Shown in pieces: positions 20,879 to 28,260 of a stretch of 64,000 bases of DNA (the stretch's first letter is position 1; each line of letters starts with the position of its first letter). The notes below the pieces were generated by a model. It did no database searches. It saw only the letters and a program-made list of their open reading frames with translations, and was not told the origin of the DNA. The position numbers and the translations under genes are program-made. The stretch lies in assembly GCA_964651145.1 (NCBI GenBank), contig CAZYVR010000001.1, positions 6,839 through 70,838 of the forward strand, in the 5' to 3' direction. The DNA is from an uncultured Victivallales bacterium (GTDB lineage Bacteria; Verrucomicrobiota; Lentisphaeria; Victivallales; GWF2-45-14).

Positions 20879-21739
20879 TCACTTTGCGCTTTTAGCCGGT
20901 GTTGAATTAGGGGCAGGCACTTTTTCTGTTTTCTTGGCCGGTTGTTTTTTCGGAGTAGACTTTGCCTTTGCTTTTGCCTTTGCCTTTGCCTTTTTTGCGG
21001 CAGCTTCGCTCTTAAGCCTTTCCTGGTCTTGTTTTTCCAGCTTTTTTAATTTTCGAATGGCATAATAGCCTATTTTCTTTTTGAACTTCTTGGACAACTC
21101 TTTATACTTCAGAAACTTAACTCCGCCATCATAAGCTATGTCTATCCCTCTCGGGTTCATATTGGTTATTTTTGCTTTTTTATAGGTTTTATTCTTTGTT
21201 TTTATGGTAAACAGAGAATTTTCCCTGAGCTTGTCGCTTTTTGAAATTTCTGTTTTCAAATCGCTTTTTGCCATTTCGCGTTCTCTCTCGGCTTTCAGAT
21301 TTGCAAGCAATTTTTTCTTCAAAGCATTTCTTTTTTCTTCCGTTGCCTTGCGTCTTTTTTCAGCGTCAAGCTTCTTTTTTTTAGCCGCCTTGCGTCTTTT
21401 TTCAGCGTCAAGCTTTCTCTTTTTAGCCGCTTTCTTTTTATTTATCTCCGCTTGTTTCTTTTTATTTATCTCCGCTTGTTTCTTTTTTTCCTCATTGTCT
21501 TTTTTGGCTTGTTCGCGCATCTGATCTTCCTTTGCCAGCCTCATGCGCTCGCCTTCTATATATGCTTTATGAAAGAAAAAAGCTATGACCCCGGCTATCA
21601 AAAGAATAATGATAAGATAGCCCATATTGCGGTTTTTCTTCTTCTTCGCAAATTCTTTAGCCATAGCCTCAGCCAAAGCGGCCTGCTCAGCAGGACTTTG
21701 CTCTGCTTCTTTATCTTTTTTATCCAAACTCAAACTCAT
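20879..21739 (-). CDS. lysine-rich, tandem-repeat, single-pass membrane protein of unknown function
   Basis: One TM (MGYLIIILLIAGVIAFFF), then a K/E/A coiled low-complexity region with exact peptide repeats (KKQAEINK x2, AAKK[R/K]KLDAEKRRK x2, (KA)6). A short beta-rich C-terminal segment follows (FTIKTKNKTYKKAKITNMNPRGIDIAYDGGVKFLKY). No family recognised. Confidence 0.6.
   Translation of the reverse strand: MSLSLDKKDKEAEQSPAEQAALAEAMAKEFAKKKKNRNMGYLIIILLIAGVIAFFFHKAYIEGERMRLAKEDQMREQAKKDNEEKKKQAEINKKKQAEINKKKAAKKRKLDAEKRRKAAKKKKLDAEKRRKATEEKRNALKKKLLANLKAEREREMAKSDLKTEISKSDKLRENSLFTIKTKNKTYKKAKITNMNPRGIDIAYDGGVKFLKYKELSKKFKKKIGYYAIRKLKKLEKQDQERLKSEAAAKKAKAKAKAKAKSTPKKQPAKKTEKVPAPNSTPAKSAK
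20961..20994. repeat. hexanucleotide tandem repeat (gcYttt)n inside the Lys-rich gene
   Basis: tttgcctttgcttttgcctttgcctttgcctttt read directly. It encodes AKAKAKAKAKAK on the minus strand. Confidence 0.9.
21345..21489. repeat. two adjacent coding tandem repeats (42 bp x2, 24 bp x2.4)
   Basis: The 42-bp unit gccttgcgtcttttttcagcgtcaagctt... occupies 21345-21386 and 21387-21428. The 24-bp unit tttctttttatttatctccgcttg occupies 21431-21454 and 21455-21478, with a partial third copy. Confidence 0.9.
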
Positions 21740-22023: not shown

Positions 22024-22542
22024 ATGGATAAATTTAAACAATGCCTTGAGGCAGACTTGAGAAAGCGTCAGCTTCTCCCAGGCAAAAACATCAAAATAGA
22101 AAAAACATCGGACGGTTGGAAAATAAACGCAAATTTTTCTAATAAAACAGACGCAATCGAATCCTACAACGGATATTTTGCCGCCACAAATACTAGTGAT
22201 GAAGACAATCAAAAGGTAAAAATAACAAGCGGATATGCGTCTGTTAATGGAAACTCATTTGAAGTAAAAGATGATGAGTTAACAGATGGCGAAATAACAT
22301 TTGCGGCAGAATTAACAATCACGGCAGAAGCATATATTTTTCTGCAAGCAGTTTATGACACTGGATCCGGCACAATAAGCGCGCCAACTATTGAACAATC
22401 GGCAACATTTCCACCACAGGGAGCAAATGTATTTAGAGGCCCAATAGCTCACATAAAATGGAATGGAACCGATTCAGTAATAAAAAGCATTTTTCAGATT
22501 CATTATGGCATGATGTATGGAATAATAACGGGGACTTGTTAA
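22024..22542 (+). CDS. hypothetical protein (172 aa), first gene of an AT-rich orphan trio
   Basis: Long ORF in a region of about one-third GC. Its stop overlaps the next start (TAATG at 22540-22544). No TM or signal peptide. The segment LPGKNIKIEKTSDGWKINA resembles short beta-strand repeats seen in fibre-like proteins, but no family is recognised. Confidence 0.55.
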   Translation: MDKFKQCLEADLRKRQLLPGKNIKIEKTSDGWKINANFSNKTDAIESYNGYFAATNTSDEDNQKVKITSGYASVNGNSFEVKDDELTDGEITFAAELTITAEAYIFLQAVYDTGSGTISAPTIEQSATFPPQGANVFRGPIAHIKWNGTDSVIKSIFQIHYGMMYGIITGTC

Positions 22543-24104
22543 TGAAACCTTGGCTTAAAGACAATAAAATAGTTAGCTCAAACGGGCTTATTTGTCAGGA
22601 TGTAAAATGCCCTTGTGGCGATGGCATTTATGTACCTCGCTTTTCTTCTTTTTTTCCAATGTCATGTACATTGATACCGGGCGCTGAACCTTTAACTTCT
22701 ACAAATAGTGAATGGGAACTATGTTTTTATGATGAATTTGATATAGAAACTCAAACATGGGAGAAACCACCATTGCATGAGTGCGAAGACGAAACTGATT
22801 CAAGAACTGATTTCTTTTTTGGTTTAACTGAACATTATGCCCAATTCATTTGTTATAATGGTTTTTTATATTTTTATACTGGGGTAAAATCCACTAGATG
22901 GGATGGATTAAGACCTTCGCCTGCTTATTTTATAGCTCTTGATTACACTAATCAAACAGATAACGAAGGTAATATTTATTCTTTTGAAATAACAAATAGA
23001 CCAAGTGATTCAGTTGATATAGCAGCTAGTCATCTTGCTGTTATTAGTGATTACTTATATGAATATAATGTATATGTAACCGATGGTGTAAGTTCTCCAG
23101 TGTTAGTTGGTAATTATAAAATAAAAATTTCTTTTGCCCACTTTAGGCACACAGACCCTGAACCAGTTCCTGTAGTTGCTGATTATGTAAATTATGGTGA
23201 TTTTCCAGATGGACAGGATAAATACATCCCAGCCGCAATAACTGCATATGATAGTTCAGACACAGAAATATTTACAGACACTTATTGGGTTCATGTAATA
23301 GGTATATTGTTTCAAGATTGTATACCAGATATTAAGTATTGTGTCGTTGGAAGCTGTTCGTATCACGCGAGCGATTGCAGTGGTTGCTTGCGCTCCAGTA
23401 GTGTTTTCGTAACTCAAGAACAGACGGCGGCAAAGCTTTCTGGCGATTGCAGACATAAATCACAATTGACTGCCGGAATGACTTCCAAAAAATACACAGT
23501 GCTGGCTTGTGGTTTTGACACGCAAGCAGAGGCTAATCAGTATATAGATGACCATGATTTACGGGCTGGGCTAGAAGAGTCCTGTGGCAATGGTGGATGG
23601 TACATTATAGGCACATGCAACTGTGATGATAATAATTGCGAATATTGTGAAAGCGGCTCTTTGTCCATTGCCTGTGATTCTGATTTTGAAACTGGTTGCG
23701 TTGATTCTGAATCAATAAATATAATGGCAGGCCCATTTAATACACTAACGGAAGCTCAAAATACTTTAGATGACAATCGTTCAAGTTATGAGGATGACCT
23801 TGACGGAGTTTGCGGCGATTGCGGCGATTGCGGTGGAGGTGAATGGTATGTTGTCTTGCTTGATCTCTATGTTTGGGCGGCTGTTGGTGCCTGTGCTGAA
23901 CATAATTTTTATAAAAATATATACGCCATTGTCACACAAACGTGGATAGATGACGCTGTAGCAACAGGCAGAGATTGTGTTAGAGCGCCTAGTGGATGGT
24001 CTATGCATTATAACTGTACATATGAAATAGTAGAAGGACCCTGTGAGCAGGGCTATGCTGGTTGCAGAGCTTCTAAATTAAATAACGCACATGGTTATTC
24101 TTAA
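22542..24104 (+). CDS. hypothetical Cys-rich acidic protein (520 aa) with internal repeats
   Basis: ORF 22458-24104; the ATG at 22542 (MKPWLKDNK) is coupled to the upstream stop. About 40 Cys, many in CxxC/CxC clusters. Contains the CGDCGDCGG run (9-bp tandem repeat, 23811-23837). No TM or signal peptide and no family recognised. Confidence 0.55.
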   Translation: MKPWLKDNKIVSSNGLICQDVKCPCGDGIYVPRFSSFFPMSCTLIPGAEPLTSTNSEWELCFYDEFDIETQTWEKPPLHECEDETDSRTDFFFGLTEHYAQFICYNGFLYFYTGVKSTRWDGLRPSPAYFIALDYTNQTDNEGNIYSFEITNRPSDSVDIAASHLAVISDYLYEYNVYVTDGVSSPVLVGNYKIKISFAHFRHTDPEPVPVVADYVNYGDFPDGQDKYIPAAITAYDSSDTEIFTDTYWVHVIGILFQDCIPDIKYCVVGSCSYHASDCSGCLRSSSVFVTQEQTAAKLSGDCRHKSQLTAGMTSKKYTVLACGFDTQAEANQYIDDHDLRAGLEESCGNGGWYIIGTCNCDDNNCEYCESGSLSIACDSDFETGCVDSESINIMAGPFNTLTEAQNTLDDNRSSYEDDLDGVCGDCGDCGGGEWYVVLLDLYVWAAVGACAEHNFYKNIYAIVTQTWIDDAVATGRDCVRAPSGWSMHYNCTYEIVEGPCEQGYAGCRASKLNNAHGYS

Positions 24105-24125
24105 TAAAAACAAAAGGAAAATAAA

Positions 24126-24707
24126 ATGAATATAAATATCTCAAGCGAAGTACTGGAAATGAACGACAAGCACATTGTCAAATTTATGAAAAACAATGAC
24201 ACTAAAAAACTTTTAAAATCATTCAATGGAAGAACTGATATTGGGTTTAGAAACGGAATGATTGTTTTGCTCAATAAAGAGGCTGAAATAAAAGAAAAAA
24301 CAAAACTGGGAATACAAATTCCAATAAGAAGCGAAAAAAGAAACATAAACACAGAGCATTGCATAAAATGCACGATGAAACATCTTGCGGCGGCAATCGT
24401 TGAAATGGGCGAACTCCGCAAAGGTTACTGGAATACAGACCATGAGATTTATTGCGCTGGAAACCTTAACGAAGCATCCGAGCAAATAGACGCTTATTCA
24501 AATAAAACAGCCATGACAATAAGAGGCATAAGGATAGATATTTTTGAGACAAAAAAAGAAGTGACTGAGCAGCACATTCAAGATGCAAAAGACATATTTT
24601 GGGATGTGAAAGAAATGCTGAAGAATCCGCCAGAATTGAAACCCAAAAAAGAGTGCGGATGCAATAAACGTAAAAAAACTGGAGATAATGAAAAACGCGT
24701 CTCTTGA
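24126..24707 (+). CDS. hypothetical protein (193 aa), third gene of the orphan trio
   Basis: SD-like aaaagga upstream, 21 nt after the previous stop. Contains HCIKCTMKHLAAAIVEMGELRKGYWNTDHEIYCAGNLNEASEQ and a basic C-terminus with CGCNKRKK. No family recognised. Confidence 0.55.
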   Translation: MNINISSEVLEMNDKHIVKFMKNNDTKKLLKSFNGRTDIGFRNGMIVLLNKEAEIKEKTKLGIQIPIRSEKRNINTEHCIKCTMKHLAAAIVEMGELRKGYWNTDHEIYCAGNLNEASEQIDAYSNKTAMTIRGIRIDIFETKKEVTEQHIQDAKDIFWDVKEMLKNPPELKPKKECGCNKRKKTGDNEKRVS

Positions 24708-24723
24708 ATAGACTTCTTAATTT

Positions 24724-24918
24724 TGATGGCTCCGTCAAAAGTCCTGAAAAATAAAAAAGCCGACGGAGTCGGAATAAAAACCGGACTATGTCAGGACGGC
24801 ATCCAGCGGCGGAATCGCTGGTCGGCAAAGCCGAAAGCTGTTGGCGCATAAAAGATTGCGCGACAGCAAGCTTTATTTCATTGCAGCGGCAGCTCCCTGG
24901 ACTTTTGGCGGCTTCGTC
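24724..24918 (+). mobile_element. MITE-like structured repeat, copy A (archetype)
   Basis: 195 bp with no ORF. Terminal inverted repeats CCGTCAAAAGTCC (24732-24744) and GGACTTTTGGCGG (24899-24911). Flanked by direct TAATTT (24718-24723 and 24919-24924). Interior hairpins at 24760-24772, 24781-24795, 24803-24821 and 24823-24833. Related copies occur elsewhere in the window. Confidence 0.6.
24747..24795 (-). terminator. tandem intrinsic terminators for the mscS-gmhB operon, supplied by repeat copy A
   Basis: Read on the minus strand: cctgacatagtccgg followed by tttttat, then ccgactccgtcgg followed by cttttttattttt. They lie 146-194 nt downstream of the gmhB-like stop (24941). Confidence 0.55.
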
Positions 24919-26592: not shown

Positions 26593-26841
26593 GACGAAGC
26601 CGCCAAAAGTCCCGGGAGCTGTCGCTGCAACGAAATAAAGCTTGTTGTCGCTTCGCGCCCCAACAAGCCGCAGGCTTTTAACGCGCCATGCGCGCTGTCG
26701 CGCAATCTTTTATATGCCAACAGCTTTCGGCTTTGCCGACCAGCGGTTCCGCCGCTGGATGGCGTCCGGACAAAGTCCGGTTTTTATTCCGACTCCGTCG
26801 GCTTTTTTAAAGTTTTAAGACTTTTAAAACTCAGTTTATCC
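26593..26841 (-). mobile_element. MITE-like structured repeat, copy B (inverted relative to A, with a ~48-nt internal insertion)
   Basis: The reverse complement of copy A aligns end to end: gacgaagccgccaaaagtcc...cgcgcaatctttta...ccagcggttccgccgctgg...ccggacaaagtccggtttttattccgactccgtcggctttttt. Flanked by direct AATGC (26588-26592 and 26842-26846). The right 58 nt overlap the pdxB 3' end. Confidence 0.6.
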
Positions 26842-27932
26842 AATGCTTCCTGAAGCGCTTGCGGAGCGTTAACCACTGTAAATGCCGGGAATTCTCTTCT
26901 TAACGGATAATCGCCGCGCTGTTTCTCAAATGTTTCCGGGTAATTGCGCAGGCGGGCGTCGTCATCCAAAGCGTTATAGCTTTGGGACACGGCTTTCAGC
27001 AGAATTTCCTCCTTTGAGCCGGAAGCAGACAAAAGATTTATTTCCGTTTCATCTGGAAGAGGCACATTTTCCGGCTTCCAGTCATCCAGGCCGAGTTTGA
27101 GAAATTTAGAAATTGCGTTGACGCTCATTTTTGTTCCATTGGCTTTGCCGTCCGCGGAGTAGCCCGCAATATGCGGCGTGGCTATGTCTGTCAATCCAAG
27201 CAGTTCCCTGTTTATGTTCGGCTCGTTTTCCCAGACATCAACTGCTGCGCCGGAAATAAGTTTGTCTTTTATTGCGGAAATCAGGGCTCCGGTTTCCGCC
27301 ACTTCACCTCTTGAGGAATTTATAAAAAACGGACGCTTGTTCAGGGATGCGAAAAATGATGAGTCGGCAAGATGAAATGTTTTGTCTTCGCCATCTCTGT
27401 TGAGCGGGACATGCATTGTGATAAAGTCCGCCTCTGAGCGAATATCTTTCAGAGAGCAAAATCCTTCAGGCCCTTCTTTCCTTGCGCGCGGAGGGTCGGA
27501 AAGCAATACGCGCATTCCAAGAGCTTCGCCGACTTTCGCAACCTTGCTTCCCACATTGCCAACGCCTACAACGCCAAGGGTTTTGTCTGTTAGGCTGATA
27601 TTGTTTTTCACGGCAAGATTCAGCAGGACTGATGTTATGTATTGCGCCACAGATGACGAATTGCAGCCCGGCGCGTTTGTCCACGCTATGCCGTTTGAGT
27701 CGCAGTACGCTCCGTCTATATGGTCGTGTCCTATTGTGGCCGAAGCTATAATTTTCACGGACGATCCGGCAAGCAGCTTTTCATTGCATTTTGTCCGCGT
27801 CCTGGTTATCAGCGCGTCAGCGTCTTTGACTATTTCAGGTGTAGTCTCTTTGCCTGGCATGTAAACGACTTCCGCAACGCCTTCAAGCGCCCCTCTTAAA
27901 AACGGTATCTTGTCATCCGCTATTATTTTCAT
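26784..27932 (-). CDS. pdxB: 4-phosphoerythronate dehydrogenase (D-2-hydroxyacid dehydrogenase family)
   Basis: MKIIADDKIPFLRGALEGVAEVVYMPGKE (PdxB-like N-terminus). NAD-binding LGVVGVGNVGSKV, catalytic HIAGYS, and a PdxB-type C-terminal extension. The last ~19 codons lie inside repeat copy B. Confidence 0.8.
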   Translation of the reverse strand: MKIIADDKIPFLRGALEGVAEVVYMPGKETTPEIVKDADALITRTRTKCNEKLLAGSSVKIIASATIGHDHIDGAYCDSNGIAWTNAPGCNSSSVAQYITSVLLNLAVKNNISLTDKTLGVVGVGNVGSKVAKVGEALGMRVLLSDPPRARKEGPEGFCSLKDIRSEADFITMHVPLNRDGEDKTFHLADSSFFASLNKRPFFINSSRGEVAETGALISAIKDKLISGAAVDVWENEPNINRELLGLTDIATPHIAGYSADGKANGTKMSVNAISKFLKLGLDDWKPENVPLPDETEINLLSASGSKEEILLKAVSQSYNALDDDARLRNYPETFEKQRGDYPLRREFPAFTVVNAPQALQEALDKLSFKSLKTLKKPTESE

Positions 27933-28141
27933 TTTTTTCTTTCTTATATTACTGTATCAAATATTCCGAAAAATAAACTTTCTCAATAACGCCTTTAGCA
28001 TTTATCTCTTCAAGCATTTGGTTTGCGACTGCCTTTATTTCTTTCGCAAACATTTGAAATTTTAAATATATCATTTAAGAGGCTAAACGCCAAAAAAATA
28101 GTTAAAAAGTAGCCATCTGCACAGCCGCACCAACATAATAG

Positions 28142-28260
28142 GTTTAAAAAGTGGCTTTGCCACCGGCTTTGCAGACCAGCGATTCCGCCGCTGGATAGCG
28201 TCAGGACAAAGTCCGGTTTTTATTCCGACTCTGTCGGCTTTTCTTTTTGAGAGAGCCATT
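28142..28260 (-). repeat. MITE-like repeat, copy C (partial, same orientation as B, alternative arm)
   Basis: gtttaaaaagtggctttgccaccggctttgcagaccagcgattccgccgctggatagcgtcaggacaaagtccggtttttattccgactctgtcggcttttc. The three hairpins are shared with copies A and B. The other arm matches the short form at 40450-40470. Confidence 0.8.

What the first reader, a model, noticed from the sequence alone, without database searches (positions are those of the whole stretch)
22542..24104. 520-aa hyper-Cys, acidic protein with an internally repeated module
The C-terminal half shows a recurring pattern. There are compact hydrophobic strands after Gly/Cys (YCVVGSCSY, CGNGGWYIIGTCNC, CGGGEWYVVLLD). There are CxxC/CxC clusters. 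A motif recurs as ACGFDTQAEANQYIDDHD (about 23505-23558) and AGPFNTLTEAQNTLDDNR (about 23728-23781), with a weaker VFVTQEQTAAKLSGDC. A 9-bp tandem repeat (23811-23837) encodes CGDCGDCGG. The G-[FP]-x-T-x-x-EA-x-x-x-[IL]-DD motif loosely recalls small alpha/beta repeat domains of the SPOR type, but that is only an impression. About 40 Cys with no signal peptide is unusual for a cytoplasmic protein and suggests metal clusters or an exported or virion context.
Basis: seen in the sequence. Interest (0 to 1): 0.55.

Follow-up and report, generated by a model that had tools for sequence, protein, structure and literature searches.

The report
Cysteine-rich phage tail protein, stranded
This is a real, conserved gene for a very rare, uncharacterised cysteine-rich protein that elsewhere always sits in the tail-tip gene block of integrated viruses of bacteria; here it survives with only its two partner genes as an isolated three-gene fragment in a Lentisphaeria-like chromosome.

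Summary
The ORF at 22542-24104 (+) is real: 520 aa, pI 4.3, dN/dS about 0.2 against a 74% identical homologue. It has 29 Cys, not about 40. That is 5.6%, the highest in the window.

The internal repeat is confirmed. Two tandem modules of about 80 aa (aa 260-347 and 348-423) match at the profile level with E = 1e-14. A third copy is not supported.

The family is tiny, with 11 representatives among 1.84 billion. It has no significant Pfam, PHROG, PDB or BFVD match.

In every relative with enough flank, the gene is the third or fourth gene after the tape-measure gene of a siphovirus-like prophage. It always lies between the same two partner genes, which I call X and Y. The part after aa 424 is exchanged among relatives, as in host-recognition proteins.

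In this window only X, the gene and Y are present, all intact, between housekeeping genes.

- **Best reading:** a distal-tail adhesion protein with cysteine-stapled, probably metal-binding, repeat modules and a swappable C-terminal domain.
- **SPOR idea:** membership is not met; only a sub-threshold motif echo exists.
- **Virion idea:** supported by gene order only.
- **Verdict:** a new variant of a known kind, of moderate interest.

The parts
22024..22542 (+). Gene X (172 aa), the upstream partner. Its stop codon overlaps the start of the Cys-rich gene. Its conserved C-terminal domain of about 125 aa is shared with the 177-410 aa proteins that precede the family gene elsewhere.
   Evidence: Residues 48-172 are 82% identical to residues 182-314 of the 314-aa protein in L002. 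Homologues precede the family gene in L004, L005, L089 and L091. The short form, with the shared N-terminal motif NIKIE.TS, also occurs in the L004 prophage.
22542..24104 (+). The finding: a 520-aa acidic protein with 29 Cys, a member of a very rare prophage tail-module family.
22542..23318 (+). N-terminal and central region, aa 1-259, predicted to be beta-rich. The CPC motif at aa 23-25 is kept in 7 of the 8 full-length members, and C81 in all 8.
   Evidence: In the AF2 whole-protein model, pLDDT is 77-91 for aa 130-200 and mostly 60-86 for aa 211-260. It is low for aa 1-125. Foldseek finds nothing significant. Homology across the family spans this region.
23319..23582 (+). Repeat module R1, aa 260-347. 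It consists of strand YCVVGSCSY, knuckle DCSGC, strand SVFVTQ, a linker, strand KYTVLACGF, and helices TQAEANQYIDDHDLRAGLEES.
   Evidence: Cys 260, 272, 279, 282 and 303 are present in all 8 full-length members.
23583..23810 (+). Repeat module R2, aa 348-423. It consists of CGNGGWYIIGTCNC, knuckle DDNNCEYC, strand SLSIAC, strand INIMAGPF, and helices NTLTEAQNTLDDNRSSYEDDLDGV.
   Evidence: Cys 348, 359, 361, 366, 369, 378 and 386 are invariant in 11 of 11 sequences.
23811..23846 (+). The CGDCGDCGGGEW junction, aa 424-435. C424 is invariant in the family, and most relatives have CPxC here. The 9-bp tandem repeat (23810-23833) triplicates the CGD unit.
23847..24032 (+). Replaced or hypervariable segment, aa 436-497. 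It has no DNA or protein similarity to the 74% homologue, although both flanks are 76-82% identical.
   Evidence: The family-wide exchange of the part after aa 424 is shown.
24033..24104 (+). C-terminal tail aa 498-520, ending EGPCEQGYAGCRASKLNNAHGYS. It is shared with the closest homologue only.
24126..24707 (+). Gene Y (193 aa, pI 9.1), the downstream partner. Its conserved core reads INTEHCIKCTMKHL...GNLNEASEQI, followed by a basic C-terminal CGC tail.
   Evidence: It is 66% identical to the 183-aa protein in L002. Homologues follow the family gene, or another mosaic Cys-rich protein, in L004, L005, L089, L090 and L091.

Best explanation
The gene encodes a structural protein of the distal tail (adsorption apparatus) of an uncharacterised lineage of siphovirus-like temperate phages.

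**Shown**
- It is a real gene under purifying selection.
- It belongs to a tiny family that, wherever enough flank is available, lies three or four genes after the tape-measure gene. It is always flanked by the same two partners, X and Y. The X stop and the family start overlap.
- It contains two tandem copies of an 80-aa Cys-rich alpha/beta module, in which almost all invariant positions are Cys.
- The region after the second module is exchanged between otherwise distant relatives.

**Inferred**
- The beta-rich N-terminal half anchors the protein to the tail tip, probably through X.
- The two modules form a rigid stalk. Each is stapled by a four-Cys site, formed by a boundary Cys, a strand-end Cys and a CxxC knuckle. 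The site more likely binds a metal (Zn or Fe-S) than forms disulfides, because virions assemble in the cytoplasm.
- The replaceable C-terminal 100-190 aa contacts the host surface.
- Y is an assembly factor or a tip partner.

**In this window.** Only X, the family gene and Y are present, between housekeeping genes of a Lentisphaeria/Victivallales-like bacterium. The trio is therefore a stranded fragment of such a tail module. It is most simply read as a prophage remnant or a recombined cassette, and it cannot build a tail on its own.
For: **Gene reality**
- dN/dS is 0.22 overall and 0.095 in the repeat region.
- The start codon is conserved and overlaps the stop of X.

**Rarity**
- Only the protein itself and one homologue turn up among 5.8 billion clusters.
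- There are 11 representatives among 1.84 billion, and homology covers query aa 1 to about 430 only.

**Tail context**
- In L001/L002, the upstream fragment matches tape-measure PHROGs weakly and aligns with the L005 tape-measure protein. The family gene is third after it, and Y is followed by a 754-aa protein matching 'minor tail/tail protein' PHROGs (E down to 7e-22). A DUF1353 protein lies further downstream.
- In L004, a prophage in an 8.6-Mb contig has a minor capsid gene, a PF10145 tape-measure gene, then 495-aa, X, family, Y and a 957-aa minor-tail-like protein.
- In L005, a Phage_tail_2 major tail gene and a PF10145 tape-measure gene precede the family gene. The same contig is an IMG/VR viral genome.
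- L089 has the same layout by ORF order and homology to L005, but there the family gene is fourth after the putative tape-measure ORF.
- No sheath-sized gene is called in the tail modules seen, so they are of the siphovirus type.

**Trio**
- The X-family-Y order is conserved.

**Repeat and structure**
- The repeat is supported.
- The AF2 domain model has pLDDT 81 and pTM 0.68. Both modules show the same order of elements.
- Eight of ten invariant columns are Cys.

**Mosaic C-terminus**
- P0003 and P0004 are 75% identical over aa 1-423, yet their C-termini are unrelated.
- P0004 and P0007 are 33% identical in the N-terminal part but 54% identical in the C-terminal part.
- The same C-terminal type and a single module occur on different N-terminal backbones between X and Y in L090 and L091.
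- The window and its closest relative differ by a clean 180-bp replacement.

**Isolation in the window**
- No other tail gene is detectable anywhere in the 64 kb.
- The right flank is GmhB and MscS. On the left, a Lys-rich membrane protein and a CAAX protease separate the trio from an HTH-cupin regulator, a GDPD-type esterase and UvrC.
- UvrC places the host among Lentisphaeria/Victivallales.

**Precedent**
- Four-Cys metal sites occur in siphophage tail tips. Lambda gpL and RcGTA gp13 carry an Fe-S cluster (PMC10721106).
- TMP-Dit-Tal acts as a platform for plug-in receptor-binding proteins (PMC7291167).
Against: - No sequence or fold similarity to any known tail, receptor-binding or metal-binding protein was found. 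This covers Pfam, PHROGs, NCBIfam and PADLOC, PDB sequences, Foldseek against PDB and BFVD, and 50,697 GenBank phage records.
- The virion role therefore rests on gene order alone.
- Receptor binding is inferred only from C-terminal mosaicism. Genetic linkage with whatever lies downstream could also produce that pattern.
- Metal binding is inferred only from Cys patterns.
- The whole-protein model is poor: pLDDT 60 overall, and the C-terminal 95 aa are below 40.
- In the window itself the gene is not inside a prophage. All three ORFs are full length with clean boundaries, which fits random decay poorly.
Confidence: 0.6

Rival explanations
1. The host has domesticated the trio. X, the Cys-rich protein and Y are kept as an intact operon that the bacterium uses itself, for instance as an adhesin or a bacteriocin-like binding module, rather than being a decaying prophage fragment.
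For: - All three ORFs are full length, and the fragment ends at gene boundaries on both sides.
- No other tail-gene debris is present in the 64 kb.
- The trio is followed by a copy of a host intergenic repeat that also follows a housekeeping gene.
- An identical sequence was recovered from two further metagenome assemblies.
Against: - There is no signal peptide or secretion gene next to it.
- dN/dS was measured against a phage copy, so it cannot show selection after the trio was stranded.
- Only one orphan instance is known, against five tail-module contexts.
- The trio's low G+C (0.32-0.44, against about 0.41-0.50 across the window) argues that it is foreign, though not how recently it arrived.
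Confidence: 0.15
2. The repeated modules are peptidoglycan-binding domains of the SPOR type, and the protein tethers the tail tip to the cell wall.
For: - The motif h-h-h-A-G-[FP]-x-T-x-x-E-A-x-x-x-[IL] resembles the strand-helix unit of SPOR.
- Pfam SPOR appears weakly in 2 of 11 members, with best E = 0.0078.
Against: - The score is below the gathering threshold (12.2 against 21 bits in the window protein), and only about 21 residues are covered.
- The predicted element order differs from SPOR.
- Foldseek listed no SPOR structure among its 50 best PDB matches, and nothing reached E <= 0.001.
- SPOR domains are not Cys-rich (general knowledge).
Confidence: 0.07
3. The modules are relatives of LPD5, a domain of large polyvalent phage proteins. 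The protein would then be an ejected early effector rather than a structural adhesion component.
For: - Pfam LPD5 (PF18799) matches 10 of 11 members, with best E = 2e-7.
- One relative, P0005, just reaches the curated cut-off at 27.4 against 27 bits.
- LPD domains also occur singly next to phage structural genes (PMC5512222).
Against: - The match covers only 26-39 of 144 profile positions, namely the GF-helix motif.
- The window protein scores 14-18 bits.
- There is no metallopeptidase or other polyvalent-protein domain.
- LPD5 itself has no known function (PMC5512222).
Confidence: 0.08
4. It is a cytoplasmic iron-sulfur or redox protein unrelated to phages. On this reading the tail-module neighbourhood in relatives reflects a moron or cargo gene.
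For: The protein has a high Cys content and CxxC/CxC clusters.
Against: - Its position is fixed inside the tail block, with overlapping stop and start codons, in independent and distant phages (28-42% identity).
- There is no ferredoxin-type CxxCxxCxxxCP motif (direct reading of the sequence).
- No Fe-S or redox family scores.
- The mosaic C-terminus is not expected for a redox enzyme.
Confidence: 0.05
5. The variable C-terminal segment is the target of a diversity-generating retroelement.
For: The variability lies at the C-terminal end of a phage tail protein.
Against: - The window and L001/L002 contain no reverse transcriptase and no template repeat.
- The only reverse transcriptase seen, in L005, is of the group II intron type.
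- The divergence is total rather than confined to adenine positions.
Confidence: 0.02

Closest known systems
Plug-in receptor-binding and ancillary proteins of siphophage adhesion devices, encoded downstream of TMP-Dit-Tal (for example lactococcal phage RBPs and the lambda gpJ C-terminus; review PMC7291167)
   Same: - The gene lies a few genes after the tape-measure gene in relatives.
- The N-terminal part is conserved and the C-terminal domain is exchangeable.
- A small partner gene follows directly downstream.
   Different: - No sequence or fold similarity to any of them was found.
- The Cys-rich tandem alpha/beta modules are not a feature of those proteins.
- In this window the rest of the tail module is missing.
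Lambda gpL / RcGTA gp13 tail-tip proteins with a [4Fe-4S] cluster held by four Cys (Tam et al. 2013, as cited in PMC10721106)
   Same: - It is a tail-tip-region gene shortly after the tape-measure gene.
- It has conserved sets of four Cys whose role would be structural.
   Different: - There is no match to the gpL family.
- The size and domain layout differ.
- Here the Cys sets are duplicated in tandem modules.
- The nature of any cofactor is unknown.
LPD5 (Pfam PF18799), a domain of unknown function in large polyvalent phage and conjugative-element proteins (PMC5512222)
   Same: They share a strand-GF-helix motif of about 30 residues. One family member just reaches the curated score.
   Different: - Only a quarter of the LPD5 profile is covered.
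- There is no polyvalent architecture.
- The window protein scores below the threshold.
SPOR domain (Pfam PF05036)
   Same: A similar strand-G-F/P-x-T-x-x-E-A helix-start motif is repeated twice.
   Different: - The score is sub-threshold.
- The predicted order of secondary-structure elements differs.
- SPOR is not Cys-rich.
- No structural match was found.
T-even gp38-type adhesins, in which glycine-rich motifs frame hypervariable segments (from my own knowledge, not tested here)
   Same: A Gly/Cys-rich motif (CGDCGDCGGG) precedes a segment that is completely replaced between close relatives. The extreme C-terminus is conserved.
   Different: There is no homology, and the comparison is only an analogy.

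Membership tests
SPOR domain (PF05036) | Pfam HMM score at or above the gathering threshold (21 bits) | tested here: not met
   The window protein scores 12.2 bits (E = 0.23). Only 2 of 11 members match at all, with best E = 0.0078, and only about 21 residues are covered.
SPOR domain (PF05036) | beta-alpha-beta-beta-alpha-beta fold | tested here: not met
   The AF2 domain model gives beta-beta-(short)-beta-alpha-alpha per module. Foldseek listed no SPOR structure among its 50 best PDB matches, and nothing reached E <= 0.001.
SPOR domain (PF05036) | Binding to denuded peptidoglycan glycan strands | not testable with these tools
   This needs biochemistry.
LPD5 (PF18799) | Pfam HMM score at or above the gathering threshold (27 bits) over most of the 144-position profile | tested here: not met
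   The window protein scores 14.3-17.9 bits. The best relative, P0005, scores 27.4 bits, but only over profile positions 71-109.
LPD5 (PF18799) | Occurrence within, or next to, large polyvalent proteins | tested here: not met
   No polyvalent-protein domains occur in the protein or its neighbours.
Lambda gpL-type Fe-S tail-tip proteins | Sequence membership (Phage_tail_L family) | tested here: not met
   Pfam and PHROGs give no match for the protein, for X or for Y.
Lambda gpL-type Fe-S tail-tip proteins | Four conserved Cys that coordinate a [4Fe-4S] cluster | tested here: inconclusive
   Conserved Cys sets exist: C260/272/279/282 and C348/359/366/369 are equivalent in the two modules. Neither the cofactor nor the geometry could be examined.
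Siphophage adhesion-device protein (RBP or ancillary tail-tip protein) | Encoded in the tail module downstream of the tape-measure gene | tested here: met
   This is met in all relatives with enough flank: L001/L002, L004, L005/L088 and L089. It is not met in the window itself, where only the X-family-Y trio remains.
Siphophage adhesion-device protein (RBP or ancillary tail-tip protein) | Conserved N-terminal attachment part with an exchangeable C-terminal domain | tested here: met
   Identity in the N-terminal part and in the C-terminal part are uncoupled among family members. Mosaic relatives occur in L090 and L091. A clean segment replacement separates the window from L002.
Siphophage adhesion-device protein (RBP or ancillary tail-tip protein) | Presence in virions and binding to a host surface receptor | not testable with these tools
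   This needs proteomics, cryo-EM and adsorption assays.
Siphophage adhesion-device protein (RBP or ancillary tail-tip protein) | Sequence or fold similarity to a known tail protein | tested here: not met
DGR variable protein | Nearby reverse transcriptase and a template repeat, with adenine-specific differences | tested here: not met
   No repeat of the variable segment is present. The window and L001/L002 contain no reverse transcriptase. The divergence is complete rather than adenine-specific.

The most novel reading that the evidence does not exclude
The 80-aa Cys-stapled beta-beta-beta-alpha-alpha unit is a previously undescribed metal-binding fold. It would define a new class of modular host-recognition proteins in phages of Lentisphaerota and related little-studied bacteria. 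The intact orphan X-family-Y trio in this chromosome would then be a module the host has co-opted for its own surface recognition or antagonism.
Probability: 0.15. Interest if true: 0.6.

Novelty: new variant of a known kind. Interest (0 to 1): 0.38.

Why it matters
Almost nothing is known about phages of Lentisphaerota/Victivallales-like bacteria or how they recognise their hosts. This family gives a handle on their adsorption apparatus.

- It offers a conserved three-gene unit (X, the Cys-rich protein and Y) with an exchangeable C-terminal domain.
- It offers a tandem Cys-rich module with no detectable relative among solved or predicted viral structures.
- If the modules bind metal, they would add to the puzzling metal sites of siphophage tail tips, such as the gpL Fe-S cluster, whose function is still unknown.

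For genome annotation the practical message is modest. The gene is phage-derived, and here it marks a 3-kb foreign fragment rather than a cellular metalloprotein.

Tried and rejected
**Searches that gave nothing**
- A profile search of the 5.8-billion-cluster database with the family alignment returned only the two sequences already known.
- Scans of the GTDB genomes and IMG/VR with the window protein found nothing. P0004 and P0002 also found nothing in IMG/VR.
- Alignment-based scans failed because no stretch was conserved enough. A narrower alignment yielded one extra metagenome locus, L089.
- In the PDB search, the repeated weak hits to ribosomal protein uL6 (E >= 0.16, TM about 0.2) were judged not meaningful.
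- PDB sequence searches for the family and for the large downstream tail proteins found nothing useful.

**Ideas tested and dropped**
- An 'empty site' comparison in related Lentisphaeria genomes failed because synteny downstream of uvrC is not kept.
- A third repeat in aa 424-520 has only motif-level similarity.
- A compensated frameshift does not explain the divergent aa 436-497, because the DNA itself is unalignable there.
- The N-terminus of Y does not co-vary with the C-terminal type of the family protein. L089 and L005 have similar Y proteins but different C-terminal types.
- X in the window is not a truncated gene. It matches the short form found in the L004 prophage.
- The DGR, defence-system (PADLOC) and NCBIfam readings are all negative.
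- No flanking att-like direct repeats and no tRNA gene were found.
Full report
**Observation**

The ORF at 22542-24104 (+) encodes 520 aa. A longer reading from 22458 exists. However, every homologue starts at the position equivalent to 22542 (MKPWLKDNK, MKLWLKDNK and so on). That ATG also overlaps the stop codon of the upstream ORF.

The protein is strongly acidic, with pI 4.26 and 77 D+E against 29 K+R. It contains 29 Cys rather than about 40. At 5.6% Cys it is still the most Cys-rich of 48 ORFs in the window, where the others average 1.57 +/- 0.85%. Twenty-one of the Cys lie in aa 260-520.

The 9-bp tandem repeat TTGCGGCGA x 2.7 (23810-23833) encodes CGDCGDCG.

**The repeat is real**

Residues 260-347 (R1) and 348-423 (R2) align with Smith-Waterman z = 5.0, and none of 2000 shuffles reached the score. 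The signal does not depend on Cys, because z = 6.3 with Cys masked.

Sub-profiles of the two regions, built from the family alignment, match each other with hhalign probability 98.3% and E = 1.3e-14. An AlphaFold2 model of aa 253-437 (pLDDT 81, pTM 0.68) gives both modules the same order of elements:
- a strand (WYIIGxCxC);
- a knuckle (DCxxC);
- a second strand;
- a linker;
- a third strand ending in G-F/P;
- two helices beginning T-x-x-E-A.

In the 11-sequence alignment of this region, eight of the ten invariant columns are Cys. The profile alignment pairs C272 with C359, C279 with C366 and C282 with C369. C260 and C348 each sit just before the first strand of their module. Each module therefore carries a conserved set of four Cys. 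A third module in aa 424-520 is not supported.

**The gene is real and constrained**

Against its closest homologue (P0002, 74% identity), dN/dS is 0.22 overall and 0.095 in aa 261-435.

**What family it belongs to**

The family is extremely small.
- A word-indexed search of 5.8 billion clusters found only the protein itself and P0002.
- An exhaustive phmmer scan of 1.84 billion representatives found 11, with similarity restricted to query aa 1 to about 430.
- Pfam, PHROGs, NCBIfam, PADLOC, PDB sequences and 50,697 GenBank phage records show no relative.
- Foldseek of the whole model and of the domain model against PDB and BFVD gave nothing at E <= 0.001.

Two weak motif-level echoes exist on the strand-GF-helix segment.
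- LPD5 (PF18799) matches 10 of 11 members. One relative just reaches the cut-off, but over only 39 of 144 profile positions.
- SPOR matches 2 of 11 members, always below threshold.

LPD5 itself has no known function (PMC5512222).

**Genomic context of the relatives**

Every homologue with enough flanking DNA sits in a phage tail module.

In L001/L002 the order is as follows:
- a fragment that matches tape-measure PHROGs weakly and aligns with the L005 tape-measure protein;
- a 274-aa protein;
- a 314-aa protein;
- the family gene;
- a 183-aa protein;
- a 754-aa protein matching 'minor tail/tail protein' PHROGs (E down to 7e-22);
- further proteins, including a DUF1353 'tail assembly chaperone' PHROG.

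L004 is a prophage inside an 8.6-Mb contig. Its order is minor capsid, then a PF10145 tape measure, a 495-aa protein, a 177-aa protein, the family gene, a 126-aa protein and a 957-aa minor-tail-like protein.

In L005 a Phage_tail_2 major tail gene and a PF10145 tape measure precede the same arrangement. That contig is listed in IMG/VR as a viral genome. L089 repeats the layout, but there the family gene is fourth after the putative tape-measure ORF.

No sheath-sized gene is called in these modules, so they are of the non-contractile type. In siphophages, the region after the tape measure encodes the Dit-Tal platform and plug-in receptor-binding or ancillary proteins (PMC7291167).

**A conserved trio**

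The gene before the family gene (X) shares a conserved C-terminal domain of about 125 aa in all loci. The gene after it (Y) shares a conserved core of about 115 aa, with a CxxC...KH motif and a basic CxC tail. The X stop and the family start overlap or abut in L002, L004, L005 and the window.

In L090 and L091, different Cys-rich proteins sit directly before Y. The 752-aa L091 protein also follows an X-like gene. Each of the two carries one of the C-terminal domain types of the family on a different N-terminal backbone. The L090 protein, cut at 386 aa, also carries a single repeat module.

**A swappable C-terminus**

Identity before and after aa 424 is uncoupled.
- P0003 and P0004 are 75% identical over the first 423 residues, yet their C-termini are unrelated.
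- P0004 and P0007 are only 33% identical in the N-terminal part but 54% identical in the C-terminal part.
- At least five C-terminal types occur among about a dozen sequences.

Between the window and L002, DNA identity is 82% up to 23847. It is absent from 23848 to 24030 and resumes at 76% from 24031 into gene Y. This is a clean segment replacement, not a frameshift. Such mosaicism is typical of host-recognition proteins.

**The situation in this window**

Only X (22024-22542), the family gene and Y (24126-24707) are present. tblastn with all neighbouring tail proteins from four loci finds nothing else in the 64 kb.

X is not truncated. It corresponds to the short form found in the L004 prophage, including a shared NIKIE.TS N-terminal motif.

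The right flank is housekeeping: GmhB and MscS. On the left, a Lys-rich membrane protein and a CAAX protease separate the trio from an HTH-cupin regulator, a GDPD-type esterase and UvrC. UvrC places the organism among Lentisphaeria/Victivallales, with 66% identity to an uncultured Lentisphaeria MAG.

The trio has lower G+C (0.32-0.44) than most of the window, which runs at about 0.41-0.50. There is no tRNA gene and there are no flanking direct repeats. Two short metagenome contigs are 100% identical to 23855-24787.

**Interpretation**

The best-supported reading is a distal-tail adhesion-device protein of an undescribed siphovirus-like phage lineage. The following steps are inference:
- the N-terminal beta-rich half attaches to the tail tip, probably through X;
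- the two Cys-stapled modules form a rigid stalk;
- the exchangeable C-terminal domain contacts the host;
- Y assists assembly or sits at the tip.

The four-Cys sets probably hold a metal. Virions assemble in the reducing cytoplasm, and four-Cys Fe-S sites are known in lambda gpL and RcGTA gp13 tail tips (PMC10721106). Disulfides cannot be excluded, and no coordinates were available to check the geometry.

In this chromosome the trio is a stranded piece of such a module. Its intactness and clean boundaries leave room for co-option by the host, a reading I rate at about 15%.

**Verdict**

The repeat is genuine. The 'virion' guess is supported by synteny. SPOR membership is not met. This is a new variant of a known kind: a phage tail-tip or host-recognition protein with a novel Cys-rich repeat module. 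Interest is moderate, at 0.38.

Noticed in passing
window 24753-24860 (+), 26700-26808 (-), about 28130-28244 (-): A conserved intergenic element of about 100 nt, rich in hairpins, occurs three times within 3.5 kb. Its core is AAAAAAGCCGACGGAGTCGGAATAAAAACCGGACTTTGTCCGGACGCCATCCAGCGGCGGAATCGCTGGTCGGCAAAGCCG. None are expected by chance, and no Rfam family matches at gathering threshold. One copy lies directly after gene Y at the right edge of the phage-derived trio. Another starts in the last codons of the pdxB-like gene (26784-27932, minus strand). It could be a REP/MITE-like element or a 3'-end RNA element.
   Followed up: partly
L094 and L095 (ENA ERZ27315643, ERZ27315768) against window 23855-24787: Two short metagenome contigs are 100% identical to the window. 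They come from assemblies whose accession numbers are close to that of the assembly behind L001 (ERZ27315522). L001 carries the full prophage tail module with the 74% homologue. The organism with the orphan trio and the related phage or lysogen may therefore occur in related samples.
   Followed up: no
L091 1709-3967 and L090 2-1162: Other Cys-rich proteins occupy the slot directly before gene Y: a 752-aa protein and one cut at 386 aa. They have different N-terminal backbones. Both carry the 'GKYYGIHV...GPFD...GSR' C-terminal domain type, and the L090 protein also has a single repeat module. The middle gene of the trio is thus a hotspot of domain shuffling.
   Followed up: partly
L005 24-1523 and 6993-7563: The related viral contig carries a group II intron-type reverse transcriptase (RVT_1 + GIIM). 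It also has an HTH/ParE-like toxin-antitoxin pair inserted between the tape-measure gene and the next tail gene.
   Followed up: no
window 20879-21739 (-): A 286-aa, extremely Lys-rich protein with one predicted membrane helix and internal 24- and 42-nt tandem repeats in its gene lies next to the trio, in the same low-G+C stretch. It has no family match. Whether it came in with the phage fragment is unknown.
   Followed up: no
window 24126-24707 (gene Y) and its homologues: Y has its own conserved Cys/His pattern, (E/H)xCxxC..KH ... HE..C plus a C-terminal CxC in a basic tail. This suggests a second small metal-binding protein in the trio.
   Followed up: no
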